From Chara braunii (Eukaryota; Plantae; Charophyceae): a DNA stretch of 64,000 nucleotides. The notes under the pieces are model-generated. The model saw nothing but the letters and a program-made list of their open reading frames with translations. It did no database searches and had not been told where the DNA came from. The stretch covers positions 2,395,112 to 2,459,111 of the forward strand of contig BFEA01000028.1 in assembly GCA_003427395.1 (NCBI GenBank). Reading direction: 5' to 3'. Of the stretch, positions 1-34,644 are shown in pieces; position 1 is the first letter of the stretch, and each line of letters begins with the position of its first letter. A program made the position numbers and the translations under genes.

Positions 1-1100
1 GGCCCGCACGCGAACTGACATCTTGGGGGGCTGAAGTCCCAAGCGCGGTCCGACGTCGGTCGACTAGGACGCATCCCGCACACCACCCGCACACCACTTT
101 ACGAACACAAAAATAAAACACACACACACATACACATGAAACGACACAACACAAACAACACGACAACGCTCCTAGCCCCTCGGTAGCCATCCCATAACTC
201 TCCGATGCGGAAATCAGGTAGGCGTCGCGCGCGAGACTTGGTATAAAACCGCGCGGACGCAGGGCTAACTCATGTCGACTCGCAATGCAAGCGTACACAA
301 GCGGTCGCAGTGATGGCGTACTATATAGTACCCATACTCACGCGGTCCCCCCCGTTAATCTTGAGGGTCGCATTCGACACTCAAGTGTCGGCTGACACGC
401 GCCTTGAGGGTTAATCTCTCGACGCTGGACAACCGCCATGCGCGGTTGAAGACCACACACCCTCTTCTGCACTCTGTGCACAGTGGGTGGTACACAGGTC
501 CATACCTGTGGTGGCAGTCGCTTCCTACTGCCCTGGGGAAAGTCCTACTCTAGGCCTAGGCAAAAGTCTAGGGGTTTGATTTTGACGGTTGCCACGGACT
601 ACAACGTCCAACCATAGAAACTCTAAAAAGCAAAGGATAACAGAGGGCTTTCCTTTCTCTCAAGCCATAGTCCGGTTAACCCTTATGCACAAATACAGTA
701 GGTCTCTCAAATACTCAGGGTACTCGTAAACATATGAGGGTTAGTTATATAGGACGATCACTTCTCACAGTCACAGTGAGGCTCCTCTTAGCCATATATG
801 TATGTAATCGCAGGCAGTCACATCCAAAGTCTGAACCACAAACGCACCGGCAATCACATCAAAGATTCAACCAAGAATCCACGCACTACCCGGGATCAAC
901 TTCAATCATTCTCTGCGCTCATACCCCTCGCTGCAGCCATACAAGCCTCACTCCTTCAACTCTTAAATAAGTACTCATTACTTTTGTTGGATGACCATTC
1001 AATAATGTCCGGGTGAAAACACAACAAAACAGTTCAATCACAAGGCTAAAGCCTTTAGGTTGAGTGGCAGGAGTGAATTGGAGTTGGATCGTAAACTGAC

Positions 1101-1154
1101 GAATCGGCAACCGACCTGTTATCAGTGATAACAGAAGATGATCCTCGTAGGATC
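1101..1154. other. Conserved triple-hairpin module of family A
   Basis: TCGG-caa-CCGA, CTGTTATC-agt-GATAACAG, GATCCT-cgt-AGGATC. Homologues at 12142-12195, 32344-32406 and (inverted) 33648-33711 show compensatory changes. Confidence 0.8.
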
Positions 1155-1401
1155 AAGCTGAAACTAGTCCAAGGCCTGAATCGAATGTCCAAGAAAGACC
1201 TGTACCATAAGATAGACCAATGTAAAGGCTAAACCTATAAGTCCATGGAGAGCAATCTCCATATCATGATCTTACCCAAATCACTCTAGTTAACCATATC
1301 TAAGCCTACCTCTAAGCAAATGTCCAAAGAAAGTTAGACCCATGGCAAAATCTCCCCTGGTCAGAGTGGATCGTCAGAATCACCACCTGTTCAACTTATA
1401 A

Positions 1402-1945
1402 TCTAACTCCTCTACATCAAGAAAATTTTGGCAGCGCTTCCCGTAGAAAAAATGCCCTTTCAGAATTTATATCAGTCCGAATATAAAAACATAAATAATC
1501 TCTAACTCTAGAAAGTCAACTTTTTTGTCTAACTCCCTGAATTAGTAAAAATTTGGGCAACATTCACTTTAGAAAGGAATATTTCCCAGATTTATACTAA
1601 GTCAGATATGAACTATTTAACTAGCGCCTTAGTTTTGCAGAAATTTCGTCAACACTCCTTTTAAAAAAGTGTTATTCTAAAATTTATACAAAGCTAAATC
1701 AAGAACTTGAGAATAACTTTGACTTCTCAAAATCCAATTTTATCTAACTCCCTGAACTAGCAAAAATTTGGGCAGCACTCCCTTTAGAAAAGGAGACTTT
1801 CCAGATTTTTACTAGGTCAGATATAAAGAAAAGAGAAGTTGAATTTTGACAAGTTCAAAATTGACTAACTCCTTGGATTTGTAGAAATTTCGGCAGCGCT
1901 TCCCGTAGAGAAAGTAGCTTTCCAAGATTTATACAAAGCCAAGTA
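1402..1945. repeat. Array of 5 long (~70 nt) imperfect hairpins, period ~90-125 bp
   Basis: Units start (t)ctaactcc and contain e.g. ctgaactagcaaaaatttggg...ccagatttttactaggtcag. The same array occurs in A2 (12447-13015) and its start in A4 (~32650-32705). Confidence 0.75.
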
Positions 1946-2228
1946 CAACAAAGGATCTCAAACTATGCGAGAATTGAAATAAGTAAAAAAAACTTAGCTC
2001 TGAAAATGCAAGAATTGAAAGTAACTTCTATGACTCTAGTACGCGGCGAGCCTCTAAAGCAACTACCTGTCAAACTGAAACTCAGACCAAGTAGTAGCCT
2101 CACTTAGTCACATGCAGGTCAAACCACAAAGGTAAATACTCTCACCATCCCCAAGTTGGTTCAGCAGACATAAGGTCATATTCTTTGAATGATTTAACCT
2201 TTTATACCCTACTTACATAGGGCATTGA

Positions 2229-3056
2229 GACTGGTCATTCGTCTTAAAAACAATGCCAGCTCTCTGCCTAGTTATACACGAACGGATTGCACAACTACTT
2301 TTCTCTTCATTGGGCATGTGACTAAGTCATTCATCTTGGAAACCATGCTTAGTCGCTCCGAACTGTTTAAATAGTTATGTTATATATACCTTTCTGCACC
2401 TTAGTCTTCAGAAAGAGGGCGTAGGGCTGAGTCATTCATCTTAGAAACAATGTTCAGCCTGCCCAGGTTACCTTTAGTTATAACTCTTGATTATACTCTC
2501 TTTGCTTGTGATAGGGCTATAGTCAGGCCATTCATCTTAGAAATAACGCCTGACTAACCTTGTTCGTATATAAGTACATATATATACGACATTATAGAGA
2601 ATCCTATTCCTTTATTCTCGTTATGGTCCTGAGGCCTCAGACTTAGACATTCATCTTAGAAACAATGTCTAGTCCTCTGACCCTGAATCCTCCCTCAGAA
2701 CAAAAACAATCAATGAGAGATGAGTCATTCACCTTAGAAACAATGCTCAGCTCTCTCTTTTTCAGCACACAAGAAAAGCAGGGTACCCTGGGTCTGACCC
2801 AGAGACTGTTCAAAAACCACCCAAGTAAAACAACGGTCGGACCATTCATCTTAGAAACAATGTCTGGCCCTCAAAAAGTCAAGCAAGCAATACCCCTCAG
2901 AAATAAGTAGTCAGACCATTCATCTTAAAAACAATGTCTGACACAATTAAAGAAACACAACAACTAAGCCATTCATCTTAGAAACAATGCTTGGTTCTTC
3001 AGAAAACAGAACAAAACATATTAGTCAGGCCATTCATCTTAGAAACAATGCCTGAC
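2229..3056. repeat. Array of 10 stem-loops with conserved core CATTCATCTTAGAAACAATG and variable, self-complementary outer stems
   Basis: Cores start at 2236, 2328, 2433, 2529, 2648, 2726, 2843, 2917, 2970 and 3031. Outer stems include gactaag/cttagtc, ggctgag/ttcagcc, tagtcagg/cctgacta, ggtcgga/tctggcc and gtcaga/tctgac. Confidence 0.9.
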
Positions 3057-4979
3057 CCCTTAAGACCCACTCAATCGTGAGCAAAACTGCCTTCCTCCCA
3101 ACCTTCGCCCTGGTGCAACCCCTTGTGACAATCTGCTTTCGGGCAATCAAGGAAATTGAAACTGCCATTATATATGCATTTCTTTAGTTAGTCTGATTTG
3201 TGTCCTGAAAGCCAATCCAAAAATCAAAGTAAGTGTTGCATACAGTACAGTCAACCAATACACAGGGAGGTATATAGATAGGGGTTATACTGGGTTTATA
3301 GGGGAAGGAAATGGTTACCTTTCAATTCCCTGCCTCCAAAGCCTCGCCTAGGTTCCGGCAGAGGTCTCGCAATCGGTTGGGCGAACCTCCCACAGAGGCC
3401 TTGGCACGGATTACGGGTTCCAATCCCGCCTTCCGCCTTCCTTTCAGAACCGATAGACTAGACTTAGACTAAGAAGGGCAGAAGTAGAAAGACTTAGTTT
3501 CTCAGATCCAAGAATGGTGCACTCAGACTCTCACGAGAGGGCCTCGATAGCTGGATACGCCTGAGGGTCCCACAATGCTGGCCAAAAACGAGACAATGGC
3601 TTGGTCAAACCGACGTCAATTTGTTGAAACAGGCTCCCCTAACGACTCCCGAATCGCAGCACTGACCCTCCTCACCATCACTCCTCCAACATTACAACAC
3701 CGCCCTTCTTTATGAGAAGCGCGCCAATGTGCACAGAACAAAGCAGAGTACACAGTTCCGTAGGCATCGACAGGCCGCTATGGCACACATCAGCACTCCC
3801 GACACTCTCAGCAGCAGCAACAGCTAGTACAGTGCCCCCAACAGCAGCAGCGATTAGTGCTACGGCAACAACTTCACCAACCAAACACAGCCATGTACTC
3901 CTCCTCAAGCTCAAACACCGCAGCAAGGTAACTTGAAAACAACTCATGATGATCACCGCAACCAGTAGTTGTCTATGTCAGCGGAAGATTTTCAGGGGAC
4001 ACTGCCATGCTGAAAACCCTTAGTAAACAGGAGTGTCGCAGTCTGCAGCAGACGGTAGCAACCACTGATCAACTGTAGCAACTGGCCTTTGCGATATATC
4101 CTTCCATAGGATGGGCAGGATCGAGTGGGCCTTCAAACTAGACCTGGCCAGATACAGCGCCGCCAAGTGCAGAGCTGCAGGTGGCTCCTATAGGTCAGGT
4201 GGCTCCCGCTCCTAACTCGACATAAACGAGCTCGGCGTAGCCTGATCAAGCCCCAGCTTCAGCTCCGATGGCCAACGGTAAAACGAACTATGAGCCGAAG
4301 CATAGCTGTCGCAAGGGAGGAGTGGTGATGGCTTCGCGATGAAGGTCCGCTTAATGCTCGCTTAGCTTGTTACGAAAACGCACAGCCACTATCCACACTT
4401 ACAAGCTTCGAGTGGCCGACCGAACATCGCTGAGAGGCGAGCTGACTTGCACCTCCGTTTGCTGATAGAGGGAACAAACGTCGAGTGGGTCTGTTGCCAA
4501 ACATGGGCAGGTGCACAACCCGCTGCACATTCACTACAGAAGGTCACTGCCCTGCCCGCCTTCACCATCATGCGAGCCCACATACACCGTGGCTCGACTT
4601 TCGATCCATCCCGCACCGCCAGTTTCGTACTTCCACGGCCTTGGTAAGTTCCTCACTCCTCTTTCTTCGCTTTACCCTGCCAAGGTTCGTACTTCCTCTC
4701 TCTCTCTCTCTCCCTCTCTCTCGTGTATCTCCGATGCTTGCGACTAGGACGGCGTGACATAGCTACAACCTCGGCTCATACCGCATTGTTACCTCGATTG
4801 TGCCTGTGGGTGTTTGCGAGGGCTACTCCCATCAACCTGACGAGCAACGCGCCAGTCAACAGGTAAGTCTCTATCCGCACGGTTGCCCTCCCGCTATCTA
4901 TTTCAATGGGATTCACAAAAGTGAATGAATCTATTCGCAAAAAACGGCCAGGTGCGTCGAACTCTACTAACTCATATCC

Positions 4980-5490
4980 TACTGACTCATTTCTAAAACT
5001 AAAGCTACTGTCACGCTCGCCCGACCAACAACCCTCAGTTTAGACCTCTGCTCGCCCGTTTTCATCAAGAAAACGGGCGAGTTTCACAACATTTACTCCC
5101 GCCATAGCCGCTTCTCCCGGTACCTCCGCGCACTGACTTTTTCTACTAACTCCACTTTTACTTACTTTCTACTGATTCTAACCGCATAATCTGCTTCGCC
5201 CATCCTAAAAACCCCAATTTAACATCTTAATTCGCTTGATTCTATCAAGAATCGAGCGAAATATCAATCTTCCCGTTTCTTTGATACTCCATCCTCCATT
5301 TCTTCGCGCACATCTTTTTCCCACTAACTCCTAACGTATTATCTTACTACTAAAACTAACACTAGATTCGGATTCGCCAGCCTAAAAAACTCTTACCTAC
5401 CCTCTCCCCCGGCTCGTTCTGGCTAAGAAACGGCGGGGTATGCGTCCTTTNCCCCCGCCATAGCCACTCCTCCCATTGCTGCGCATGCAC
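4980..5490. repeat. Three degenerate ~185-bp tandem units, each with a hairpin
   Basis: Hairpins ctcgcccgttttc-atcaa-gaaaacgggcgag, ttcgcttgattc-tatcaa-gaatcgagcgaa and ccccggctcgtt...aacggcgggg. A homologous array lies at ~16020-16520. Confidence 0.65.
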
Positions 5491-6312
5491 CCGGCGCACA
5501 TTCGCGCCCAGATTCAGCCCCCTCGTTCACCTGTTCTTCGCTGCCCGTCGCCCGCTGCCTTGCTATACGGCCCTAACGTTTTGCCGCAGCGACAAAACAA
5601 ACTCCCCTCTCGTGTCTGCTCCCTCCTTTCTGCCTTCCCCATCTCGCCCGCACCCGACACAGCCCCCCGTCCAGGTTCAACCCACTTCCCCTCTACTCCG
5701 CCTGCCTAGCGCCCGTAGGTACTGCCTCAGCGCCCCCGCAGCTGCCCGTCGGGTCCTTTCTTCCTCCCTACTTCGTCCGCCCGCTCGGTCTACCACTACT
5801 CCCTGCTCAGCGCCTCGCCCGCACCCGACTCTCGTCACCCGTTGCCTCGGACAATAGCGGACCCGCAGTCCGCTACTCGGAGATATGTCGTTGGTCCCGC
5901 CTCCTCTCGAGTGGCCCTGAGCAGAGACTGCTGATGCTCATAGGAGGAGGGGACCAGAGGGGTAGTCAAATGACCAGCCCTTCAAAGAGGCTCGGTCCTA
6001 ATGCTACCGGCCGCCCCCTGGCTGGTTTCACCCACCTACTGTAGCCGGTAGCGCACCTGCTGGTGGGTTCAGCCCCCACATGTTCCCACGTCAAAGGCTC
6101 GAGCACGGATATGGCTGCTACGGGGTTCCCCACAATACTATGAAGGGGTAACTTTGGCGTAGTCAGGACAACATTTCGTAATCGGACCTCAGGCAACCCG
6201 CGAATACAACGCACCCCCGTGCGTCTTTATATCAACCCCAATACCGCCTCCGAAACGGGACGCGAACAGGGGGAAAGCTAAAACCAGAAACGACAAGAGG
6301 TATAAGAAAAAA

Positions 6313-6343
<31 letters not shown>

Positions 6344-8718
6344 AACGGGGAAAAAGGAGAGGAACTACAAACACCTCGCCTCCCCCGTGGGTCGGGCCCG
6401 CCGCCATGCCCATTAACAAAATCGAGGGGGATCGTTGGGCCCTCAACCCCTCCTGTTTTGCTCCACACTGCTCCGCTGCCTCTGCGCCGACGCCCTGCTG
6501 GCCTCGATCCCCGGACCTCCGTATCATCAACCCAGTGCCGTAACCTCTAGGGCTAAGCCCAAGCCTGAGACTAGTGCCCGCAGAGTACCATACAAGGCAG
6601 TGTGGCGCGACGCTTTGCGCCAACAAACGGGTTGTGAGGTTCCCAGTGCCCGCGCCGGCTTGCTTATATCGTGCCATAATTGCCCCGCGCACCATCCTAC
6701 GTCGCCCCGCTCACCGCACGAAGTCACGCCGTCGTTGTCAATGTCATCGTCCTCGCACGGGCGCTTGCCTCAGTCGCAGGAAAATATCCTTAATTCCTAC
6801 TTAATCAAAAATAAATAAATAAAAATAAAACAAAGTTAAACAGGCCGGCGTCTGCGCCGGCTTTATAATCAACGACAGGGGGAAAAAAAAAATTCCGCGC
6901 GCCTCAAACCCTGCGCGCCCATACACTCTCTACTTACCGTACTGCCGCAAGTCGCGCGGCCTTCTCAACAATTCCAGGTTAAACTTGTTTTCTGTCACTT
7001 GCAACACCGCACTCCAATAAAACCCGCATTTGAAACCCGATCCAATGCGTGCGCCAACGCCCGTGCCACTCCCAATTCACACCCGTCCTCATTTTACCGT
7101 ACTCATACTACTTAAAAAAAAAAAAACGGCAGGGTCACCGCTCGCCACATCACCTCACCCGGCCTCACGAACACTCGTAGTACCACCACTTGACCATACA
7201 AAAAAAAAAAAGCTCCACTGCGCCAAAACAAAATCAGCAGCGCCTCAAAACTGCCAAGAAACGGGTAGCACTTCAGCACTGTCGAGGTGTAAATCACCCG
7301 CAAAATGGAGTGCAACCTGTCGCACGGTCACACCAATACTGCGTCGAAAAAGTCCTGCCGACATCGTAAATTTTCGGCAGCACATCCGCACCAAAATGGG
7401 GATCAGCTTGCTGCAAACCAGACCGTCGACACCTCCACCAACATCGCCTTGATGTTTTCGTTGCCGTCGTGGTCCCGCAGCGTCCCAAGTACCGTTCCGT
7501 TAGACAAGCATCAACGAGAAGGATGAGGAGTAGAGTGCTCCCTACCTCGATTTATGTATGCCATCCTTGCGTTGGGGCCATGCTAATTAGGCGCGTGCGA
7601 TTTCGGCCACGTGATCCAAGTGATCGTGAGGTCGAAATCGACCATGCTTTATTACTTCCAACATGGCTGCTCGAAAAGGAGCTGGCCCAAGTAGGGTGGT
7701 ATCGAGTTCGATCCAAGTATCTGTCGGGTGAAAGTCTGCTACATGATCCCACTGGGCTAGCTCCTGTTACACGGTAAACATAAGCAAGTCTTCATTATGA
7801 AGAGCTAACCAGCATATAACCCTGTAGGCTTCAGCCTGCCCCTGCCGCTTAAACTGTCGTCGCCCATCCCCGAAGCAAACATGAATTCATCCGCATAGGG
7901 TGGGGCATAAGTCTTTCGCCATGCCGACGCCGGTTCGAGTTCGAGCAGGGCAATTCTAAAATAAGATAAGTCTGAATCCCCCCGCTACTCTTATTACGAC
8001 TTACATGCCCAACGCGGCCACCCTTTATCCACTTAAACCCTGAGTCACTATTTTATATAGAATAGGTTTAGATTTAGTATTTCCAACAACCGTCTGCCTC
8101 TGCGGCCTTGCAAACGCAGGGTCGGTCAGTCATGCCATTGATCCTCTCCCTTGCTCTTGCAGGCCGCGAACGTCCAAACTTAAATAAAAATATTTTGACC
8201 TGTTGGTCGTGGGTGTGGTCTGAATCGACTTTTGGCAGATACCTGAATCTCATCAAGTAAACCCATTCAAACAAAATTTTACCATTAGTCAGACAATGCC
8301 CGATATTGAAAATCCCGAGCAGATACCCTTGTAAGGATTTTTGCGACACCGTGGTTGCGGGGCAACGCACAAAGAGTTGAGGGATGGACTCTATCTGATC
8401 ACATCTACGGGTCGTGCAAAGCCCCTCATTATGGGGACTTTTGTTGCCAGCCACTGTGTTGTAGGGACTACAAGATGGTAAATCTGCCATAGCAGCCTTG
8501 CCTTCCTCTGGTCGGGCAAGGTCTTCTGAATCTCGCATTGTTCCTACCATTTTCGCACCATCCATCAAAGGATTAGTGTTGAGGGGATCCACTCTCTTTT
8601 ATCTCACCTATCTATCAATTCCTCATATATATTTACTCTTGGCAGCAATAGCTGATGGATTGCCTTTGAAGTGATTGTTGTAGTGCAATACTCTTGTTTT
8701 AATTATAAGGGGAAGGTG

Positions 8719-10410
8719 TCACTCTTGGGGATCCACCACTAGTTGTTGTTTGCCCGTACTCGAGCAAAAAGGGAGGCCCACCTCCTCACTCGCGACAGTC
8801 TCAATCCCCAAATGGTCAATGCTGCATCTACGGGGCAGAGCTTCCTCCCAGGATCCTGCCAGCGGACAGCCTAACCCATCCCAACCCGACCTTACGACCC
8901 TCACCACCCATTTGGAGGTCGCATGTTTTTCCTCTGGCAATGCCCCTTCCACCTTGTACACCGTTCATGGGCAAGGGTCCCTTTTTAACTTCACCCAATC
9001 TCCTTCCTGGAAACCTCCCTTCTTCAATAGGCCCAGCCATTGCACCGGGATGACCTCCTACAATTCTCTCAACCGTTGAAGTCTACTGAACTTTAAGGGC
9101 AAGCACCTTATCATCTTTCCATCATTCCTTCAGTCCCCCTTTGGGTGTCCCATAAATGACCAACCTTGTATATCGCTCGCTCTGCCCATTGATGGTCAAA
9201 CGCACCCACTCTACTTTGTCAGGAAAGGGGTCCCCTGCACTATTACATTTCAACCTATTATCGAAGATGGGTTGATTAAAAACAACACCCATGGACTCTA
9301 GCCACATGCACTAGAGTAATATATTGTCTTTCCATAACACCAACGTAGCGGACCAAGCAGAGGTTCTCCTCATATGGCCCATCATAGCCGCACTGGCGGA
9401 ACACACAAGTCTACCACCACTAGGGAGGTCCTTCAATTTTTTGTATGGACCAAGCAATTGAGTCACCTCTGTCCACGACCCCCCCGTTGTTTTCAACAGG
9501 ACCCAGACCAAGTTTCGAAGTTGCAGGGCAGTCATCTGCAGCCTTGGATCCAGGATTCCCAAGCCTCCCACCAATCTAGGCTGGGTCAGCTTGCCCTATG
9601 CCACTCTGCAAGTATTGTCCCGCTTCACTAGACTTCCTACCCATAGGTACACATGTATCACACTCCTTAACAAACCAAATAGTTGCCTACCTAGCATATG
9701 AATCGCCCCGACGTACGACATAGTAGCAAGCACGAAGTTGTTAACAACTCGCGTTTTGCCAAACAGGCCTAAACTGGTGCGCAATCCCCAAGCCCCCAAC
9801 TTTGCAATTGCAGCTTCCATCAGCGAGGTCATCCGAGCTATGCCTCCACGTGGCGGAGTCACCGACACACCAAGAAAACAGAGCCACGGTGGGGATGTCC
9901 CATCCAGCTGGCGGGGGCGGTCCCTGTGGCATCACTGCCTTGGACTTGCCCTTACAAAAAATGGTTAGGTCGTCCTTTAGAATCTCCAATTGTTGCACTC
10001 TAGGGGAGGTGGTTGCTCATGTATATTTCACCCATTTATCTGGTTCAATCCTCAACCCCTGGAGTAGGTTGTATCTCCTCAGGATGCAACACCTCGATAT
10101 ATATGAAGTAAAGGGTGGGGGATAGGGACATCCCTGCATGACTAATCTAATAAACTAACACCCTTAGTTGTCACCCCATTGACCTGCATGGAAGTCTGAG
10201 CACCCATCAGAAGGGTGCACTCCGAGCCCCCAAAAATTTCCCCAATGCCTCTCCGCTTCATGCATTGTAGCATGAACGCCCACCAAACCCGGTCATAAGC
10301 CTTCTCTAGGTCGATAAGGACCAACGCGAGCAGTTGCTCCCCTTCATTGGCAATTTCCAGCACCTGGCGGATGAGGAAGACATTAGTTAGTATCTGTTTG
10401 GTTGGGACGG
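8719..10410 (-). pseudogene. L1/Tx1-clade LINE ORF2, 3' part (RT domain and C-terminal region), decayed
   Basis: Frameshifted fragments VPTKQILTNVFLIRQ...LIDLEKAYDRV, MQGCPLSP, LKDDLTIF, LGLFGKTRVVNNFVLATMSY and GGLGILD, typical of L1-type reverse transcriptases. Confidence 0.9.
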
Positions 10411-11096
10411 TGTCAAACACATTAGTCCGCCACCGCACAAGCGGGGCGGGACCCTCCCGGCCGCGTCACGCAGGAGTTGGTCTTATCCTCATCGCAAAAT
10501 ACACATGGAGCTTTCGCAAGCCGCTCCGGCCGAGTGCGCCAGCCATACCCCTGGCGAACCCCTACGACAAGATAGGGCCTATGCAAGGCACGACTTACCT
10601 CCACCTTACGGGAGTTGTCACCTCCCTTTGGTGGGCGTATCCCCGCCGAGCTACCAGTCCACAATACGAAAGCTAATCAGTTGCAATCGCAGAGGTGGAC
10701 CAGCCGAGGGCNNNNNNNNNNNNNNNNNNNNNNNNNNNNNNNNNNNNNNNNNNNNNNNNNNNNNNNNNNNNNNNNNNNNNNNNNNNNNNNNNNNNNNNNN
10801 NNNNNNNNNNNNNNNNNNNNNNNNNNNNNNNNNNNNNNNNNNNNNNNNNNNNNNNNNNNNNNNNNNNNNNNNNNNNNNNNNNNNNNNNNNNNNNNNNNNN
10901 NNNNNNNNNNNNNNNNNNNNNNNNNNNNNNNNNNNNNNNNNNNNNNNNNNNNNNNNNNNNNNNNNNNNNNNNNNNNNNNNNNNNNNNNNNNNNNNNNNNN
11001 NNNNNNNNNNNNNNNNNNNNNNNNNNNNNNNNNNNNNNNNNNNNNNNNNNNNNNNNNNNNNNNNNNNNNNNNNNNNNNNNNNNNNNNNNNNNNNNN

Positions 11097-11156
<60 letters not shown>

Positions 11157-24353: not shown

Positions 24354-24406
24354 GACTGTTTCGTCGGGGTTGCGCCAACTCATCAGGAGGTTGGACCTCG
24401 ACAGTC
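24354..24406 (-). ncRNA. Type III hammerhead ribozyme (copy 1)
   Basis: Minus strand GACUGU-C^GAGG-UCCAA-CCUC-CUGAUGA-GUUGG-CGCAACC-CCGAC-GAA-ACAGUC. Complete core with GUC cleavage triplet, and stems I, II and III all pair. Confidence 0.92.
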
Positions 24407-24635
24407 CAATCGTTGCGCGTGAACCTTACGCTGAAGGCAACCAGGTGCAGAGAAAGAGAGAAGGGGAAAGAAAGGGGGGGAGCCACCAAACTTACCTATG
24501 GTTGGCCCCTCCGTGCAGCTTTCAACAATAGGATAAGCAAAATCGAATGAATCTCCCACCAGAAAGTGGGAGAATACATCCTCGCGTGCAGTGGCGAAGC
24601 CACTGCTACAGCTGCGACCAAGGAGGGTTGTGCCA

Positions 24636-24688
24636 GACTGTTTCGTCGGACTCTCACCGACTCATCAGGAGGTTGGACCTCGACAGTC
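24636..24688 (-). ncRNA. Type III hammerhead ribozyme (copy 2)
   Basis: Minus strand GACUGU-C^GAGG-UCCAA-CCUC-CUGAUGA-GUCGG-UGAGAGU-CCGAC-GAA-ACAGUC. Differs from copy 1 only in stem II and loop II, with pairing preserved. Confidence 0.93.
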
Positions 24689-25087
24689 AGCCCCTGCGCC
24701 TGAACCCGGCGCCGATAGCGTCTAGGTTCAGGCATATATAGAGAGAGAGAGAGGGGGAGAGAGGGAGAGGGAGAGAGAGCGAGAGGGAGAGAAAAAGAGA
24801 GAGGAAGGGTACCTACCCTACCTACCTACCTACCTATCTGGTTGACCCCGTGGTACTTCCAACGATGGGATGACCAAAATCGAAGGAATCTACCCCAAGG
24901 ACAAGGGGAGATTCACGCTACAGATAGAAAAGGTAAGTTGTTGTTTTTTTTGCTTTCTTCTTTTGTTTTTGTTTGTTTCTTTTTCTTCGTTTTTTTAGCT
25001 CGCCCACGTCACGTGGCCGTTGGCGTATAGAAAGCAGGGGAAAACGGGGAAGGATGAAACGAAATAAACAAAGAAACTGTAAAAAAA

Positions 25088-25118
<31 letters not shown>

Positions 25119-26244
25119 GAGGCAGCTGCCTCGTGGAAACAAAAACGAAAAAAAACAGCCTTTTCGGCTGTGTGGGAGCAGAAAGGCTCCCCACCCCATT
25201 CAGGGCGAATATTTGAGGCCGCGAGATTTTAAATCTTGCGGCTCACGATGCGCGCATGAGAATGGGATTGTGAAGTTGGTTGAAGAGAGGAAGGGAGGAG
25301 GGACGTGAGAAATGGGAGAGGGAGGTCCTACTCCTCCCAGCCTGCCAACTGCCCTCCCCGTTTTTAGGGGAGGGTAGCAAAAAGTTAGGGAGGACTGTAG
25401 CATGCAACTGCATGAACCTGTCTGAGAGAATGGCCAGGCGCATGCAGTTAGAATAGTTTTTTTTTTTTTTTTTTTCTTCTTTATTTTTTTGAGGACACTT
25501 GTCCTCACGTGGTGCTACCTCTGGCAGAAACTGCCAGAGGTAACTGTCAGGCTCCCGTTTTTGAAGGGAGCTTGAAAATTGAAGGGCCACTAAGGAAAAG
25601 GCTAGGTGCAGCCTATTCCCTGATGTATCTGCCCTGGGAAAAGGGTCCAGATACATCAAATTGTAAGGGGTTGTATCTCTCCAACCCTTTATCAGAAAAA
25701 TAAAGGAAAAACAGATTTAGAAATGGTAGAAGCCCAGCTATCTCGTGAGATTCCGAGATAGCTGGGAAAAAGAAAAGAAAAATAAAATAAGGGCAATTAA
25801 AGAAACTGCCCCACACTAAGGCTGTGGCTGTGGTGCGACCACAGTCAGCCCTGGATCTTGGCAGATCAAGGGCTCACAGTGAGCCCGCGATTTTGCCTCG
25901 GGGCTGGAGTGACGTCCAGCCCTCCTCAGCCAATATAAAACAGGCAGTTGCCCCCCAGCTGCCACACAATGCAATCGTGATGCCAGTGTGTGACGAGCAC
26001 ACTTGAGTATTGCTGGTTGCTGGAGCTGCTGCCTGAGGCAACGTGAGGAGAGGCTGGAGGTCTGCAGAGGAGCGCAAGGAGAAGAACTGGGCAGCCATAG
26101 CTAAGGCAGGGGGCACTCTGCTCCCCTCCCCTCTGGCTGGTGTTGGTCCCACGGGACAGACCCAGTGGCGCTGTGGGACTACGGCAGTACGGCACAGTGA
26201 AATTTAGGCCTGGGGCCCAAATTTTACTAATTTTGGCCTGCTAT

Positions 26245-26610
26245 TTTTTTTCGGCAGCGGTACGGAGGTGTTGTCGAAATTCTGCGGCGGCGGCACGGGT
26301 TTTTACAACAGCGATATGGAGGTGCTGCCAAAATTTTGCGGCGGTAGTTCTGGTTTTCTCGGCGGTGATGCGGAAGCGCTGCCCGGATTTTGCGGCGGCG
26401 GTTCTGGTTTTCTCGACGGTGGTGCGGAAGCTCTGCCGGATTTTTGCGGCGGCGGTTCTCGTTTTCTCGGCGGTGATGCGAAACCACTGCCGGATTTTTG
26501 CGGCGGAGGTTCTGGATTTTTTCGGCGGTGGTACGGAAGCGCTGTCGGATTTTTGCGGCGGCAACTCCGGTTTTAACGGCGGCAGTGCGAAAGCGCTGCC
26601 GGATTTTGTT
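26245..26610. repeat. 54-bp GC-rich minisatellite (~6.5 copies) inside A3
   Basis: Unit ggttttctcggcggtgatgcggaagcgctgccggatttttgcggcggcggttct. Produces 18-aa periodic ORFs in several frames. Confidence 0.85.
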
Positions 26611-27917
26611 TGCAGCGTCAGTATCGGATTCTTGCAGCGACGACACTATTTTCACGACAGTAACGACAATATTTTTGCACTAAGTGGAGGTGGGACATTG
26701 ACACAGAGGAGGTGCGTCTAAGCGGTGTTTTATTTTGAAGTGGCGTGAGGGTGACGCCGCTGAGACGCCGTGCTTTAAAACCAAGTGGCGGTAACAAGAA
26801 AACGCCACCAGGTTTTTGGGAGGCGATCGGTGCTGAGAAGGTACTCTGGCAAGCGATCGTCAAAGGAAGTGGTGTCGATCACTTTGGTGGCGACTGGGTG
26901 CGACAACCTTCTCGTCGGGAGAGCGTACTTCTATACGGTTTTCTTGGGTATACCGTTCAACTTCACTCAAGGTCAGTTAACCTGATTCAGTTCCCTTCAC
27001 ACCTGTGTGAACCCGCACTTGCTTGACCTTAACTCTCTTAACGTTCATTGAAAAGGAAAAGGAAATGTGTGTTAGCGTGTGTTATGAGGAGTCTGGCGAT
27101 GGCAAAGGAATGTATGGTGGTATGTGTGATCTGGCTTTGATTGCAGGTACAACATGTGGGCTGAGATGGATGAGGGTGATGATGGTGGAAGAATGGTTAT
27201 TTTCTCACCTTTTTACTTATGACTGCGTGTAAACTAAAGGGAAAAGAAGACGACGAAAATGAAGCGGGCACAAAGAAGAGAAGCGCAATTTAACTTAGAC
27301 TTTTTCCCGAGGTCACCAATTATTTCGCGAATGACCCTTTCTATCTACGCTTGTCCATCTGAATGATCCTTTCTTTACAATTATCTTTTTCCTTCGTCTA
27401 AGTTGCTCCTAACGTCAGGCGGCAAGAGTTTCTTTGCCCATCGTGTAGATATTTTTCCTTTTCCTATGAGGCATCTGGGGCGGGGGTTCGTTGCCTTAGG
27501 GGCCGGCCCTGTTATCGACTCAGAGTGGACCGCTTTGCGGGGGGGTACCATGCTGTTGCGGTGGAGTCAGCCCGACTTCTGAGTTCCGACGTTCACTCGG
27601 ACGAGGACGAGGGGTATCCCAGACCACCTCCTAGGGGGATGGATAAAAGCATCTTCACGAAAGGACTTTAAGTTCTTGATGCCTTGCGTAAGGAGAAACT
27701 GCCATAGCACTCATTTTGTGGCCGTTCTAATGAGCCACTGACGTATGGGGAATTGGTGCCACAAGCAGCTCATTTCGTATCCTACTATCCAAACGGAGTG
27801 TATTTAGATATTCTCGACGTGGCTGGCCGTGCCATAAGAAGCACGGGCCAGAAGGAAGGTAAATGTTTTAGTAATACTTAGTTGTAACTTGATCACTTTT
27901 GTCTTCACTTCGTTCAG

Positions 27918-29006
27918 ATGGTTGTGGGAACGACGGTCTGCTACCTTTTCCACAATCGTGATGCAGCGGCGGAACGGGTCGAGTCTCGGAGACTTAATGG
28001 AGAGAGATTAGAGAGGATAGGACGGTTCGTCTACAATCCTTATGAATTATACTCTGAGGAGGACGTCCCGCGGTTCTGGGGAGACAGTGCTCGAAATCCC
28101 CCTAGACGACTTATTTTTAGTTTAAGAACCGGACTGGACATCCTACACTATGAGTTTGCGCCACCACTGCCCAAGCGTGATTTCGCTAATATGAACTTAG
28201 TGGCGATGTAGCCATACGAGATTAATCCACGAATGAACGAGATCCCCGAGATAAAGCCGACGTTCATTCGTTGCGTACTGTGGTTGAACGAACGACAGGG
28301 GTATTTCTTCGGCATATATCACACAAGGCGGGTGCGGGCAAACAGGTTCAGTATTCTACGAGTTGAACCTTTCTCTGAGTATGCATGGCAGGATGAGGAG
28401 GACGAACTCGAGGAAGGAGTACGTGACTAATGTAATTTCTGTTCTGACACGCAGATGCCTGGAGCACGACGAGACTTGACGACCCTGAGGTACCTGCTAG
28501 TTCGCAACACACATGAGGTCGATCTTATCAAAGGAGCGAAGCAACTTTTACGGGTTCGAGCCGGTTCTCCTACGGAATGGACTGGCTTCATCGGATTATT
28601 ACGAAACGGCGAGGGATTTTTTCCCACTACTCGCACGGATTTCCGGGCAAATACGGTTCGGACTCAGGATGAGTTTTTCACATATACCTTGTATTTCCAC
28701 CGCGTGAGTAATCTCCAATGTCTCTCACGAGTCATTGTGAGTATCACGATTACCTCGTCCAGCAGACGTTTCGGCGCCATCCGGATCCGGGATACTGAGA
28801 CCAGACACGTGTTTGGACTCAGTCGGCCTTTCCGAATCATAGTATGGAGACTAGCCTCACAGATGACCTCCCTATATGGTACTCAGATTTTTAGAGTCAT
28901 GCGAAGAGGGCGAGCGACAACCCTGGTACTTGACAACGACGAGTGTGCGCGTTTGGATTTGTTGGAGGCACAGGTGCGCGGAGGACGACATAGTTACCAG
29001 GGTTAG
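27918..29006 (+). pseudogene. Decayed cargo ORF of unknown function in A3 (~362 codons), probably with an upstream exon
   Basis: ORFs 27918-28211, 28233-28430 and 28455-29006 are all in one frame, separated by single TAG and TAA stops. They are preceded by an AT-rich GT..AG intron candidate (27859-27917). No recognisable domain. Confidence 0.55.
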
Positions 29007-29769
29007 ACTCCGTTTTTTGAAAATCTTACTCAGATTCCAGAAAACCTCTTGCATAGACCAAATCCCGTCGAGAAAGTCATATGATTATGACTTCACGAGG
29101 TAATCTCAAAAACAAAAACAAAAACACTTTATGTAGTTAGGACCGCCGGATGGATAGTATTCGGATTACCCCGATGATTTCACTATCATGCTTATGCATT
29201 GAGGGGTAATCGTTCGCATAAAAACAAGCGGAATAAAGTGAAAAGCGAGACATCTGAAAAGAGATGCAAAGCGTAGTAATGAGAACGAGGTAGTGAGAGA
29301 CGGAGCATTTCTTTGTTGAGTTACTTGGGGTTGGAGATGAATACTTCGTCATTCGTGGAACATAAAAAGTAATTATTGTCCAAGAGGACAAAACGACCAA
29401 CAAAGTTTTCACACACTTCTTCAAGTAGGTGCATGGTACGGAAATGTGGTCGGACCAAAAATTCAAACATCGACCAGGAATCAAATCACTTGTTGATCTG
29501 CATGGTACCAGTGATATTTACTTGCAGAAGATAATCATGACGAGTTTTAGTAGTCATGATAGGAAGATCAGTCTTAGTTTATTTCTTTAATTTATAGTCT
29601 TGGAGTGACAATATAAAAGTTTTTCAGTCATACAGGTTGAAAAAGAGACACTTTGGCAAATCAGCTCATCAAGTTCATGATTTGGATTGTGTGATTTTAT
29701 TTTAAGGTATAGGGATTTTTATTGTTTGATTGCTAGAGACTAAAGATTGTTTTCACACTTGGTTGAGAC

Positions 29770-30225
29770 TGTCCTAGTCGAACGGCGTAGGCTTCGTACT
29801 TGGGAGATCAGCGCCCCAGGGAACGAACGGCGTTCAGGTTCATTCGGCAATTGCCAAACATTTCCTAGACTGCAGCGAGACGAGCAAACACCCTCGGTTG
29901 ATCTACCTCTGCGATCGCATTTAAAAGCCTTTGTACGTGGGTCAGTAGCTCGGTAGGGATACACCCCTAAGGGTGGTGACAGCCCCTTAGGGATGCAATT
30001 TTATGCCCCGCGAAAACCTATCCTGTCGTAGGGGACCGCGAGATGTACAGCTGGCGCACCCGGCTAGAGCGGCGAAGGAGCGATGCAACCACGTCCGTCT
30101 CGGCGGCTCGCGGAAAGTTATGCGTCGATCCTTAGTTGTGTCTTGAAGTTATGTTTTAGGTAAACTCCTGCGTGACATGCCCGGGAGGGCCCTCGTTTTT
30201 CGCGCGAGGGCCGATGCGCTCGACA
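29770..30225 (+). ncRNA. Putative structured 3'-terminal RNA module of family A
   Basis: Conserved in A2 (10411-10711), A4 (31135-31440), A5 (34340-34644) and partly A1 (1-75). Contains covarying helices and a G-GUGA-C GNRA-type loop. Confidence 0.6.
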
Positions 30226-30754: not shown

Positions 30755-30909
30755 TGTGACCCTGAGGCAAAAATTTTCATTTTATTTTTCTGCATAATGT
30801 AGTGTTTTTTCGGATTTCTTAAAGTTTTTTTTTTGGGGGGGGGGGGACCTTCCTTGGTCTTTGTACAGCCTGGCCACCCGAAACCCGAGCAGCCCGACTG
30901 GTAGCCTAG
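30755..30909. mobile_element. Right end of a hAT-like MITE of the same family
   Basis: Ends CGACTGGTAGCCTAG, similar to 30470-30619. Embedded in (TAA)n. Confidence 0.55.
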
Positions 30910-31001: not shown

Positions 31002-31134
31002 GTGGTAATAATCCGTCAACTATTTTGAATGATCTTGCAAGGAGCAAGGGATCAAAGAAAAGAAAGACGTATTATTGATGTATCACTTGTCAGAGATCTT
31101 TCCCCATTTCACTTATTTTCTCCCTTCACTTTTT

Positions 31135-32705
31135 GAGTGCGCCAGTCATACCTCTCGCGACCCCCTACGACATGATAGGGTCACGTGAGGTACAACTTAC
31201 CTCCACTTGCGGGAGCTGACACCATCCCTTAAGTGGGCGTATCCTCGCCGAGCTACCAGTCCACACTACGAAAGTTTTTACATGCAATCGCACTGGTGGA
31301 CTAGCCGAGGGCGTTTTCTCGTGTGTTGTAGCATAGGGGGTACAAGTGGTCGCACTCCTCTATCAGACCCATACGCGAGCTTACGCACTGGGGGGCTAAA
31401 GTCCCAAGCGCGATTTGTCGCCAGTCAACTAGGACGCATCCTTTTTACCACGCGTTACACCACGCAAAAAATAAAGAATTAAGTTACTCACACAAACACT
31501 CCTAGTCCTTTTATCATCCAGCCCATAACCTTCTCAACACTGAATCAGTTAGGCGTCATGCACGAAACTCATAATAAATATCGTGCGGGCGCAGACTTGC
31601 TCATATCGACTAGTCCTGTTTGAATAAAAAAATAGTCTCAATGATGGTGTACTCTGTAGTACTCATAAGCGCGTGGCTCTCAACGGTTTCGAGGGTCGCG
31701 TTCGACACGCAAGTGTCGGCTGACACGTGCCTTGAGGGGTTAATCTTTCGACGCTACATAACCACCAAGGCGGTTGGGAACTACACCCTCTTGTGCACCC
31801 TGCGAAGAGTGGGTGGTAGACAGGTTCAAGCCTATCGTGGAAATCGAGCATTATTGTCCTGGAGACGATCTCCTTCAACGGGAGTCTACCACCACGGACA
31901 TTAACGTCCAACTATAAAAATTAATAAGAAAAATCAATCAGAAAATAAATAGACATTAAAAAACCTACATTAAAATTAGAACTCGAGATAAGATAAAATA
32001 GAGAAAGATATGCAGATCGTGCGACACATGGTTCATTATCACTGCCTCCAAAGTAAAACTTGTACACCGAGCTCCAAATAGTAACCTGCATAAAAGACGA
32101 ACATATACGAAAGTCACATTGTCATACACCAATGTAGTAAACTTTTCTATTTCGTGTAACTCACACCACGCCTCTCACACTCAAGCCTCAAACATTGTTA
32201 AACTTTCCATTAAAACTCAACAGTTCTTTATAATGGTCATTAAAAGAAGTCCGGTTAAAAACCCTTTAAGAAACACATCAAATCCCAAGGCTAAGGCATC
32301 AAGTTGAGGTGCAAATGCAAACAAAGTTGTGTCATGAGCCGAGGAATCGGCAATCAACCAATCGACCTGTTATCAGAAGATAACAGAAAACGATCCTCGT
32401 AGGATCGACTGAACTAATCCGATCTTGAATTAAAACGACTAAGAAGGACATATTACACAACAGAGGTTAAATCTCAAATATTTAAACTTTAAGTGTATGA
32501 AGATAAATAGCCATATCACATGTCACTCAAACTCTTATAAGACCAGATCTTAAATTTATCTCTCAAATAGACCTTAGAGAATAAGGAAAATTATTGCAAC
32601 GTCTCCCCTATACAGGGTGGATCGTCAAGACTTCTCCTATCAAAATGTAATCTAACTCTTCAAAACTAAGAAAATTTCGATAGCGCTTCCCATAAGAGAA
32701 ATGTT
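31135..32705 (-). mobile_element. Family A copy A4, truncated at both ends
   Basis: Colinear with A2 10532-12500 and A1 1-1450 (terminal module, triple hairpin, first long hairpin). Confidence 0.85.
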
Positions 32706-32808
32706 TTTTTTCTAGGCTTCATTTTCATGCACACGGGCGCCCCCGGCTTGCATGGATCCTTGCACAACTGCACAGTCGTGCGGGTCCCCCGTATGGGTCC
32801 CGTGCGGC

Positions 32809-33075
32809 CACAAGCGGTTAACGGGTAGCTGGAAATTTAGGAATTAAAATTTTGAAGTGAGAGTTTTGGGCATTCTAAAAATCCTGAATGGTCAAAAAGT
32901 GGTGAAAGGTCCGAAGACCCTGAGGCAGATAGCATCCTGAAGTGGTGAGTATGTCCTGAAGTGGTGAAAGGTTCGAAGACCCTGAAAACCACCTGTTTAG
33001 GTAGGCTGCATCCTGAAGTGGTGAAGGGTGTCCTGAAGTGGTGATGAAAAATACGACTGTTGTTAACATTCTCTC
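32809..33075 (+). mobile_element. Family B copy 3 (internally deleted, no TSD)
   Basis: Same CACAAGCGGTTA and TTAACATTCTCTC ends and the same subrepeats. Confidence 0.8.
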
Positions 33076-34644
33076 TGGAATTGATAAGTAGTAAAAAATT
33101 TTCATGTAAATCAATCCACTACTTGTGTATGTCAGGACAAGAAGAAGAGAAAGGAAAAAAGAGGGTGCTTCAGCGGGAGCGACTCCAGAAGTCCTAAAAG
33201 AAGTAGACTAAAGGGCAAATACTGCAGAAATAAAAAATTAGAAAAGAAGAAGCTTCGCGTAGACCCAATTCATTAATAAACTCTTAAGGGAGGAAACGCC
33301 AATGACATGAATTGATCTCAACTAAACTACCGTGTAAGCACCGAAGGGTGTGCTTATCCACAGGAGAGAAACTGTAAGGACTGAAAGTAGGGGAAATATG
33401 GTTCCCTAAGACAACTTAAGACATAGGCAAGAAACTCCTTGAACAAAAGGAGAAGGAGGGACAAACGACTTAGGGTAGGTAGAAGCTAAGGGGTTAGACT
33501 TTGGGATGTTGATCCCAAAGCTCACATGCCAGATCTAAGGGTTTGGCCCTTAGGGATCAATATATAGGAAATCGAGTGGGGGTGTTGAATCTTTGTTGAC
33601 CTGTGTGTGTGCAGGTCCATGTTTTGATCTACTGCGATTGAAGGAAAAGTCCTACAAAGAGGACTCAATTTTTCTGTTATCTCTCGATAACAGGTCGGTC
33701 GTCGCCGATTCAACTTTTCCCCCCTTGACTTGATACCCACGTCTCAAATCAAACCCTGTGGTCAGTAACACTGTCACGTGTGGTCATTGCCTAAATGATC
33801 CGAGTCACTCTCAAGGGTGCTTTGAAAAAATGTGAGGGAGGTGGGCTTACGTTTAAGGAAAGATAGAGCTGTCATATATGGTTTGGGGAAGTGAGAAACA
33901 AGGTCAATGGTTGATGGTTGACGTCGTTAGTACATGGCATGTGAACTGTCTTTGCATTATTCTGTGTAGGTCTGTCTTGTGCGTGGTTTGGATTGAACTG
34001 GGTTTGACCTCATGAAGAGTCTTGGACACACAACACTTGTGAAAGTGGAAAGGGTTCTCGGCGCTAATACCTCTATATTCATTATCTATCCTATATAACT
34101 TTTGTAATATCTGATGTCCAGTTTAGTCATGACCTGTCAAATATAATAAAATGTCCTAGGTAGTAACATGATTTGATTGGTACCTTGGCAGGAGAACAAC
34201 ACATTTTCAAAAGCGGATAAAGACAACCTTATAAAAGTTTGACCTGAATATCTAGAAGTCCAGGATAGGGAAACACATCCTGAACCTGACTTGACTAACG
34301 GGTCAGTCTTATACATCTTACTTCTCGTACCCCATTCCTATGCTGCGACGATCGAGCAAACGCCCTCGGTCGACCTACCTCTACAAAGACATGTAAAAGC
34401 CTTCGCACGTGGACCGGTAACTCAACAGGGATACGCCTACCTAAGGGTGGTGACAACCCATTGGGTGAAGGTAAGTTGTACCTCGCGGCGCCCTGACCTG
34501 CTGTGGGGCGTCGTGAGAGGTATAGCACACGCGCACGGTCGGAGTGGTGACTGGTTTTTTCAATAACTCTGGAGAAACATCCTGCGTAACACGACCGTGA
34601 GGTTCAATGCTCCCCAACAGGGTGTGGGACCACCGCGCGCGACA
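33076..34644 (+). mobile_element. Family A copy A5 (divergent, 5'-truncated)
   Basis: Triple-hairpin module at 33648-33711 and terminal module at 34340-34644, ending GCGACA with right flank acgc. The left boundary is approximate. Confidence 0.7.

What the first reader, a model, noticed from the sequence alone, without database searches (positions are those of the whole stretch)
1..34644. Family of 7-8 kb, essentially non-coding mobile elements with TGTC...GACA ends, 4-bp TSDs and structured-RNA interiors
Seen: five related insertions (A1-A5). A2 (7673 bp) and A3 (6873 bp) are complete, with only 4-5 bp terminal inverted repeats and no internal LTR pair. I saw no PBS/PPT and no recognisable RT, integrase or transposase ORF. 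The copies share a terminal TACCCT-(T/C)ACA-AGGGTA hairpin and a ~350-450 bp conserved module at the other end, while the interiors are mosaic. Established: TG...CA ends with short TSDs are the signature of retroviral/Gypsy-type integrases and of the related Ginger DNA transposons, but Ginger elements have long TIRs. Inference: these are either exceptionally long solo LTRs, or a non-autonomous, LTR-less class mobilised in trans by a Gypsy/Ginger-like integrase whose information is carried in RNA structure. I do not recognise it as a described family.
Basis: partly seen in the sequence, partly recalled or inferred. Interest (0 to 1): 0.92.

Follow-up and report, generated by a model that had tools for sequence, protein, structure and literature searches.

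The report
Giant solo LTRs in stonewort alga
These 7-8.7 kb repeats, which end in TGTC...GACA and sit at CG-centred four-base target sites, are likely the left-over terminal repeats of a very abundant Gypsy-type retrotransposon of a stonewort alga (probably Chara) rather than a new class of mobile element, but they are unusually long and one copy carries two hammerhead ribozyme motifs.

Summary
The repeats are real: ends, lengths, hairpin and conserved module are confirmed; each target duplication has one CpG-type mismatch. The LTR-less reading is not supported. A relative found elsewhere (L001, 82% alike to A3 in the module) ends in GACA, and 2 nt later carries a 19-nt tRNA-Asp primer-binding site, then about 800 nt of leader and an ORF start. 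So the module is the U5 end of an LTR, and A2 and A3 are solo LTRs of 6.9-7.7 kb (A1 about 8.7 kb). All 4 visible targets are NCGN, as in moss Phygy; the primer is Athila's. The host is probably Chara, where the module is about 10^4-10^5 times deeper than unique DNA. No gag-pol, polypurine tract or LTR pair was seen, and only one PBS junction. Extras: two type III hammerheads (A3 only, antisense), and a Pol III-like unit plus a U6 3' half (A1, A3). Covariation in the module is not significant with 5 sequences. Verdict: new variant of a known kind, with LTRs longer than the 6.5 kb cited for Ogre.

The parts
1..8348 (-). A1: LTR, U3 start at 8348; U5 end about 350 nt off the window (about 8.7 kb in all); solo LTR or 5' LTR of a full element, cannot tell
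   Evidence: (L001 422-443 matches window 71-50, 402 nt before the LTR end)
10411..18083 (-). A2: complete solo LTR, 7673 bp including 385 N and a ~500-bp nested repeat; target ACGG/ATGG at 10407-10410 and 18084-18087
23353..30225 (+). A3: complete solo LTR, 6873 bp, no gaps; target GTGT/GCGT at 23349-23352 and 30226-30229
31130..32710 (-). A4: LTR fragment of the A1/A2 type, both ends lost (limits approximate)
33076..34644 (+). A5: LTR fragment with intact U5 end (GACA, then ACGC); inner limit approximate
29880..30225 (+). U5 module of A3 (core also at 10516-10711 in A2, 31130-31322 in A4, 34353-34548 in A5); adjoins the PBS in L001; carries a splice-donor-like motif in 4 of 5 sequences (absent in A3)
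23364..23381 (+). terminal hairpin at the U3 start (also 8323-8340 in A1 and 18055-18072 in A2)
7529..7764 (-). A1: Pol III-like 91-nt unit (7764-7674; box A-like, box B-like, terminal stem, T run) followed by the 3' half of U6 snRNA (Rfam model 48-105)
23828..24060 (+). A3: homologous Pol III-like 90-nt unit (23828-23917) followed by the 3' half of U6 snRNA ending in a T run
24635..24689 (-). type III hammerhead ribozyme motif 1, antisense to the LTR; predicted cleavage after 24682
   Evidence: Rfam RF00008, 50.6 bits over a 48.5 cut-off
24353..24407 (-). type III hammerhead motif 2, intact core, 282 nt downstream of motif 1; predicted cleavage after 24400
   Evidence: core pattern and alignment to motif 1; not listed by Rfam
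28431..29003 (+). open frame in A3, LTR sense; its 28455-28697 part has two relatives in Chara braunii gene models; no Pfam family
15207..15700 (.). palindromic MITE-like repeat nested in A2; not part of the family (other copies lie outside it)
8349..21400 (-). decayed host LINE into which A1 and A2 inserted (pieces 8349-10410 and 18084-~21400; left-most and right-most limits approximate)

Best explanation
A1-A5 are likely long terminal repeats (6.9-8.7 kb) of a very abundant Ty3/Gypsy-type, probably non-chromovirus retrotransposon of a charophyte alga, and A2 and A3 are likely solo LTRs left when the two LTRs of an inserted element recombined and deleted the part between them. SHOWN: TGTC...GACA ends; 4-bp NCGN targets; a family member whose conserved module is followed by GACA, 2 nt and a 19-nt site complementary to tRNA-Asp, then a leader and an ORF start; no PBS and no enzyme gene in the window copies; very high depth in the organism's DNA. 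INFERRED from the established LTR cycle: the full element is transcribed from its 5' LTR, tRNA-Asp primes reverse transcription at the PBS, strand transfer rebuilds two LTRs, a Gypsy integrase inserts the DNA at NCGN with a 4-bp stagger, and LTR-LTR recombination leaves one LTR between the duplicated bases, whose CpG then decays. The long U3 would collect and swap blocks by template switching (Pol III-like unit, U6 piece, hammerhead block, coding island), giving the mosaic. NOT SEEN: gag-pol, a polypurine tract, an LTR pair; the parent may be autonomous or borrow its enzymes.
For: (1) L001 (1 hit in the metagenome scan): the module ends in GACA at 845, then 2 nt, then a 19-mer identical to the site that PMC2844528 Table 1 lists as complementary to the 3' end of tRNA-Asp. 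Chance of any of 50 tRNA-type 18-mers within 6 positions is about 4e-9 (my arithmetic). ARAGORN finds no tRNA gene there. (2) L001 belongs to the family: 82% identity to A3 over 221 module columns, and 73-78% to the others. Its terminal 24 nt match at 23 positions the consensus end seen in 80 and 102 contigs of the organism's own DNA runs. (3) The 4 bases after GACA in L001 are not NCGN, whereas all 4 window insertion sites are (CG background 0.044). The consensus flank in the laid contigs is also CG-centred, though overall agreement is only 0.53-0.56. (4) 4-bp NCGN targets are the signature of Phygy (186 elements, 100%), and tRNA-Asp is the main primer of Athila (72%) and TatII (37%); all are non-chromovirus Gypsy lineages (PMC6317226). 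(5) A splice-donor-like motif lies in the module on the strand that the PBS defines as sense, in 4 of 5 sequences. (6) Summed contig depth over the module is 1.9e5-9.2e5 against 6-13 on the flanking LINE, which fits Gypsy being the main LTR class in C. braunii (10.1101/835561).
Against: Only one PBS junction was seen, on a 1749-bp contig from another record. The 33-codon ORF after it has no real relative: 2 spurious repeat hits, none, no Pfam family. So it is not shown to be gag. No RT, integrase, polypurine tract or LTR pair was found. The loose-end rows shown (18 of 773) include no PBS junction. Superfamily and lineage rest on TSD and PBS only, and they point to different lineages. TGTNR ends with CCGT/ACGG targets also describe Ginger1. 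The lengths exceed those in the papers read.
Confidence: 0.85

Rival explanations
1. The repeats are non-autonomous Ginger1-like cut-and-paste DNA transposons that have lost their long TIRs, and L001 is a chance insertion next to another element's PBS.
For: Ginger1 has TGTNR ends and 4-bp CCGG (75%) or CCGT/ACGG (24%) targets (PMC2836005). A1 and A2 sit at CCGT and ACGG, and all visible ends fit TGTNR.
Against: Ginger1 TIRs are 40-270 bp; here they are 4-5 bp. The passages read name no plant Ginger1. The L001 junction has the short spacer of a true LTR-PBS junction and lacks the NCGN target. NCGN is also the Phygy target.
Confidence: 0.05
2. A new LTR-less, non-coding class is mobilised in trans by a Gypsy-like integrase, with its information held in RNA structure.
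For: No enzyme ORF in 105 frames scanned; many hairpin-rich windows, above all in the first 3 kb of A3; hammerheads and a Pol III-like unit are present.
Against: PBS after the end in L001. Module covariation does not exceed shuffles: 7 of 59 pairs change on both sides, and 239 of 500 shuffles reach that. Only 2 of 5 module copies fold with z below -2. The hammerheads are in 1 of the 3 long copies.
Confidence: 0.04
3. These are LTRs, but of a non-autonomous LARD- or retrozyme-like element that has no working pol and borrows enzymes from a Gypsy partner. This is a variant inside the best explanation, not an alternative to the LTR reading.
For: The ORF after the PBS has no relative in the protein collections. 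Plant retrozymes carry type III hammerheads in LTRs, make 4-bp duplications and use Gypsy enzymes (PMC4918200).
Against: L001 has a long leader and an ATG-led frame running off the contig, as an autonomous element would. Retrozyme LTRs are 300-400 bp with a tRNA-Met PBS. Here the hammerheads are antisense to the LTR.
Confidence: 0.2
4. The true LTR is much shorter, and the 7-8.7 kb lengths come from insertions made after integration; the hammerhead block in particular is a nested Penelope-like remnant.
For: A2 holds a ~500-bp repeat found elsewhere and 385 N. The ~2-kb hammerhead block of A3 is absent from A1. High-copy Chlamys Penelope-like elements with hammerheads and tandem pseudo-LTRs are reported from C. 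braunii (PMC8557442).
Against: A1 and A2, two separate insertions, are colinear over about 5.5 kb of aligned sequence spread along nearly the whole of A2, so most of the length is inherited. The Chara Penelope hammerheads in the supplement rows seen have the type I layout; four short motifs from the A3 hammerheads were not found in that supplement (one strand only, line breaks could hide them).
Confidence: 0.12

Closest known systems
Phygy (non-chromovirus Ty3/Gypsy of the moss Physcomitrella; PMC6317226)
   Same: 4-bp target duplication with NCGN preference, stated there to be the only plant lineage with such a preference; non-Met tRNA primer; non-seed green lineage.
   Different: Phygy uses tRNA-Trp (81%) and whole elements are 7.7-10 kb, about the size of one LTR here; no protein was available to test kinship.
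Athila and TatII (OTA superclade; PMC6317226, PMC2844528, ATHILAfinder preprint)
   Same: tRNA-Asp PBS identical over 19 nt, a short spacer after the LTR end, and a long leader (about 800 nt here, 1009 nt in FIDEL).
   Different: Athila makes 5-bp duplications (95%) with no target preference and has LTRs of 1-2 kb; TatII makes 4- or 5-bp duplications, and its extra RNase H could not be tested.
Ogre (PMC6431247, PMC6317226)
   Same: [quoted passage not shown]
   Different: tRNA-Arg primer and 5-bp duplication; the LTRs here are 6.9-8.7 kb.
Plant retrozymes (PMC4918200)
   Same: Type III hammerheads within an LTR-type element; 4-bp duplications; reliance on Gypsy machinery.
   Different: Retrozymes have one hammerhead per 300-400 bp LTR and a tRNA-Met PBS. 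Here two lie in tandem 282 nt apart, antisense, inside one giant LTR, in 1 of 3 long copies.
Cassandra, Helenus, Ajax (small-RNA-bearing TRIMs; PMC10886601)
   Same: A Pol III-type small RNA sequence inside the LTR.
   Different: Those are 0.3-1.3 kb elements with 5S- or tRNA-derived sequence. Here a unit that matches no Rfam family and a U6 3' half sit in the U3 of a giant LTR, and A2 lacks them. The term snRNA does not occur in that paper's text.
Ginger1 and GingerRoot DNA transposons (PMC2836005, PMC6839031)
   Same: TGTNR ends and CG-centred 4-bp targets (Ginger1); 4-13 kb size and cargo (GingerRoot).
   Different: Both have TIRs of 40-270 or 100-150 bp; GingerRoot makes 6-bp duplications; neither has a PBS.
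Chara-specific Gypsy family of the C. braunii genome paper (recalled; paper not held)
   Same: Same probable host and superfamily; it may be this very family.
   Different: Not testable: I could not read its description or sequence.

Membership tests
LTR retrotransposon (solo LTR) | TG...CA ends with a short target duplication | tested here: met
   A2 and A3, 3 of 4 letters each, CpG-type mismatch
LTR retrotransposon (solo LTR) | PBS complementary to a tRNA 3' end just after the LTR in a family member | tested here: met
   one junction, L001 848-866, 19 of 19 with the published tRNA-Asp site
LTR retrotransposon (solo LTR) | two direct LTRs around an internal region, with a polypurine tract before the 3' LTR | not testable with these tools
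   no genome held; L001 is 1749 bp and its record is not held
Ty3/Gypsy | gag-pol with order PR-RT-RH-IN | tested here: inconclusive
   only 33 codons of an ORF are on L001; no true relative found
Phygy | 4-bp NCGN target | tested here: met
   4 of 4 window sites; consensus flank of 80 and 102 contigs
Phygy | tRNA-Trp primer; element 7.7-10 kb | tested here: not met
   primer is tRNA-Asp; one LTR alone is 6.9-8.7 kb
Athila | tRNA-Asp/Asn PBS | tested here: met
Athila | 5-bp duplication without target preference | tested here: not met
   4-bp NCGN
Athila / Tat / Phygy | place in RT and integrase trees | not testable with these tools
   no RT or integrase sequence of the family was obtained
Ginger1 | TGTNR ends and CCGG/CCGT/ACGG target | tested here: met
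   ends fit; 2 of 4 targets are CCGT/ACGG, the other 2 are GCGT/ACGC
Ginger1 | TIRs of 40-270 bp | tested here: not met
   4-5 bp only
GingerRoot | 6-bp duplication and 100-150 bp TIRs | tested here: not met
Retrozyme | type III hammerhead | tested here: met
   A3 only; RF00008 above cut-off, plus a second intact core
Retrozyme | 300-400 bp LTRs each with one hammerhead, tRNA-Met PBS | tested here: not met
Retrozyme | self-cleavage and circular RNA | not testable with these tools
   needs a bench assay; no reads were laid on A3
Small-RNA-bearing TRIM (Cassandra/Helenus type) | Pol III boxes conserved in the LTR | tested here: inconclusive
   box-like motifs (consensus recalled), terminal stem and T run kept in 2 of 3 long copies; z -3.35 and -2.19; no Rfam family

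The most novel reading that the evidence does not exclude
This is an undescribed early-branching non-chromovirus Gypsy lineage that makes up a large part of the Chara genome. It joins the Phygy target with the Athila primer, has the longest LTRs yet reported (7-9 kb, beyond the 6-kb ceiling of common LTR finders), and uses its U3 as an exchangeable platform for working small RNAs: a Pol III transcript, a U6-derived RNA, and an antisense hammerhead pair that releases a 282-nt, possibly circular RNA. Such an LTR would show how retrozymes can arise inside an autonomous Gypsy LTR.
Probability: 0.2. Interest if true: 0.8.

Novelty: new variant of a known kind. Interest (0 to 1): 0.5.

Why it matters
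The mechanism is the ordinary LTR cycle, so this is not a new class. Three things still matter. First, size: LTRs of 6.9-8.7 kb exceed the 6.5 kb cited for Ogre and the 6-kb limit set in the plant survey and in an algal genome pipeline, so such elements would be missed by those settings although they look very abundant. Second, the mix of a Phygy-type target with an Athila-type primer in a probable charophyte bears on where non-chromovirus Gypsy lineages came from. Third, type III hammerheads and a Pol III-like/U6 block inside a giant LTR offer a testable link to retrozymes and to Cassandra-like elements.

Tried and rejected
No whole genome is held, so ends could not be paired genome-wide. The module pattern found 0 loci in viral contigs and 0 in genome contigs. 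The PBS-junction pattern found 2 loci in viral contigs, both unrelated chance hits with no similarity to the window, and 0 in genome contigs. The hammerhead pattern found 0 in viral contigs. The L001 record could not be extended. The ORF after the PBS gave 2 spurious repeat proteins and nothing in the word search. No RNA holder was listed for A3. RNA reads over the module are few and on both strands (X6: 47-86 against 94-197), which I do not count for either orientation. My first guess, a chromovirus (Galadriel/Tcn1) LTR, is rejected: those use tRNA-Met or self-priming. My first orientation (module = 5' end) was reversed, so the remark in notebook entry 3 about a polypurine tract is void. The miRNA-family Rfam hits are far below cut-off and fall on palindromic repeats. 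Earlier findings of the scan had nothing on this genome or sequence. Ten literature searches listed no paper that, by title or abstract start, describes a Chara LTR family; the Chara genome paper is not held, so absence from print is not established.

Full report
1. The observation. Self-comparison shows five related stretches. A2 (10411-18083) and A3 (23353-30225) begin with TGTC and end with GACA and have the stated lengths. Their flanking 4-mers are ACGG/ATGG and GTGT/GCGT, each with one CpG-type mismatch. A2 splits a LINE reverse transcriptase into Pfam profile positions 12-44 and 37-99, which supports its limits without using the end motif. Removing A2 and one 4-mer does not restore the LINE frame (my reading), but that LINE is broken in many places. 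The terminal hairpin is at three places against 0.01 expected. I scanned 105 of the 106 gap-free frames of 70 aa or more inside A1-A5; none hit an RT, integrase, gag or transposase family, and the three weak hits lie in low-complexity frames. A2's length includes 385 N and a ~500-bp repeat also found outside the family. A4 and A5 are fragments.

2. Host and abundance. One frame in A3 has exactly two relatives in the protein collection, both Chara braunii gene models that begin with the same stretch at 69-70% identity and go on with unrelated sequence. The host is therefore probably Chara, and the stretch is multi-copy. Laying two DNA runs on 7650-10710 gave depth of about 6-13 on most of the LINE, 1223 and 4700 in the bin with A1's end, and 1.9e5-9.2e5 on A2's module. 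The tool warns that summed depth is no copy number, and the runs may be the source of the assembly; I take it only as an order of 10^4-10^5. In 80 and 102 contigs that leave the reference near A2's end, the consensus is an A3-type end preceded by a CG-centred flank (agreement 0.53-0.56; 18 of 773 loose-end rows shown).

3. The deciding locus. A degenerate module pattern found one contig in the metagenome collection, L001, and none in the viral or prokaryote collections. L001 is 82% alike to A3 over 221 module columns. On its plus strand the module ends in GACA at 845. Two bases later comes a 19-mer identical to the site that PMC2844528 (passages, Table 1) calls complementary to the 3' end of tRNA-Asp; the ATHILAfinder preprint (passages) gives its first 13 nt as the Asp/Asn PBS. 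It starts with the complement of CCA, and no tRNA gene is there. About 800 nt further an ATG frame runs 33 codons to the contig end. The chance of such a match at such a place is about 4e-9. The four bases after GACA are not NCGN, so this is unlikely to be a target site. The module is thus U5 and the hairpin marks the U3 start; LTR sense is plus for A3 and A5 and minus for A1, A2 and A4. A splice-donor-like motif lies on that strand in 4 of 5 module sequences. No PBS follows A2, A3 or A5. A2 and A3, with target DNA on both sides, are solo LTRs. A1 extends about 350 nt off the window (about 8.7 kb in all) and could be a 5' LTR. Limits: one junction only; the ORF has no true relative; no polypurine tract, pol or LTR pair was seen.

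4. Lineage. In PMC6317226 (passages; supplementary file 3 read whole) Phygy is the only plant lineage with a target preference, 4-bp NCGN, and uses tRNA-Trp. Athila uses tRNA-Asp (72%) with 5-bp duplications; TatII uses tRNA-Asp (37%) with 4- or 5-bp duplications. All four window sites have CG at positions 2-3 in at least one flank, against a CG frequency of 0.044. The family thus works like a non-chromovirus Gypsy but fails one defining test each for Phygy and Athila, and without RT it cannot be placed. Ginger1 shares ends and targets but has 40-270 bp TIRs (PMC2836005, passages). GingerRoot has 6-bp duplications (PMC6839031, parts 1-3 of 7). The largest LTRs in what I read are about 5 kb and 1.9-6.5 kb for Ogre (PMC6431247, passages). 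LTR finders were capped at 6 kb in PMC6317226 and in the Penium preprint (10.1101/835561, passages), which also states that Gypsy predominates in C. braunii. PMC13570524 (passages) was read for LARD terms only. I recall that the Chara genome paper names a Chara-specific Gypsy family; it is not held, so this family may already be catalogued.

5. The interior. In LTR sense, A1 and A2 align at 1343-3532 with 40-2247 and at 4700-8248 with 3650-6967; A1 and A3 align at 5-809 with 8-692 and at 787-1117 with 2738-3057. So A2 lacks a 1.3-kb block that A1 shares with A3, and A3 has a 2-kb block that A1 lacks. The shared block holds a 90-91 nt unit with box A-like and box B-like motifs (consensus recalled), a terminal stem and a T run (z -3.35 and -2.19). 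About 80-90 nt after it comes the 3' half of U6 (39.3 and 26 bits, below the 44-bit cut-off; model positions 48-105 for A1). The A3-only block holds two type III hammerheads with intact cores, antisense to the LTR, with cleavage sites 282 nt apart. One passes the Rfam cut-off; the piece between them folds only modestly (z about -2). The core pattern gave 3 matches below 36 kb: these two, and one at 28054 that lacks the flanking stems by eye. Plant retrozymes have type III hammerheads in 300-400 bp LTRs (PMC4918200, passages and section 5). Chara Penelope-like elements also carry hammerheads, in the type I layout in the rows I saw (PMC8557442, passages, section 9 and supplement searches). TRIMs with small-RNA sequence are known for 5S and tRNA (PMC10886601, passages); snRNA-headed SINEs are known (PMC4494074, search listing only). 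Activity of any of these motifs is untested.

6. Structure. Folding z below -2 on either strand occurs in 10 of 17 windows of A3 (all of the first 8), 8 of 21 of A1 and 5 of 17 of A2, against 0 of 13 LINE and 1 of 9 right-flank windows. Much of it is near-symmetric between strands, so it may reflect DNA palindromes. For the module, 2 of 5 copies pass z -2, and the predicted 59-pair structure has 7 pairs changed on both sides, which 239 of 500 shuffles reach. Conserved RNA structure is not shown.

7. Verdict. Most likely (0.85) these are giant LTRs, two of them solo, of an abundant non-chromovirus Gypsy-type element, moving by the ordinary tRNA-primed cycle (inferred from established knowledge). 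The LTR-less class is unlikely (0.04). The case remains of moderate interest for LTR size, for the hybrid target and primer, and for the ribozyme and small-RNA cargo.

Noticed in passing
window 15207-15700, 21515-22005, 32809-33075: A ~500-bp palindromic MITE-like repeat with internal ~20-bp units in three copies (79-96% alike): inside A2, inside the LINE, and between A4 and A5.
   Followed up: partly
window 22260-23352 and 30226-30900: A3 sits inside another element rich in inverted repeats and (TAA)n runs, with a related stretch at 56250-56780.
   Followed up: no
window 31130-34644: A4 and A5 point away from each other and meet at a truncated MITE-like copy, as if a deletion joined two inverted LTRs.
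   Followed up: no
window 4645-4870 (+), 15881 (+), 24838 and 24497 (-): Splice-donor-like motifs beside pyrimidine tracts lie antisense to the LTR in A1, A2 and A3; in A3 each precedes a hammerhead. They could mark an antisense transcript.
   Followed up: partly
window 27150-29050 (+): A stretch of A3 with several short frames bordered by splice-like sites by eye; only one frame was searched, and it has two Chara relatives and no known domain.
   Followed up: partly
L001 848-875 and about 1570 (+): The PBS could pair with the bases just after it as a hairpin, and an acceptor-like site lies about 80 nt before the ATG; splicing from the U5 donor would remove the PBS from the mRNA (by eye).
   Followed up: no
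window 26255-26608; 1423-1947; 2230-3060: Tandem 54-bp units in A3, and dispersed ~30-90 bp repeated motifs in A1 with counterparts in A2.
   Followed up: no
window 34645-36300 (-): A second decayed retroelement-like coding stretch right of A5; its 207-codon frame has only a weak, probably spurious Pfam hit.
   Followed up: no
window 39072-41830 (+): Probable host gene: membrane-type N-terminus, zinc-ribbon-like motif (weak Pfam hits) and a long low-complexity tail.
   Followed up: no
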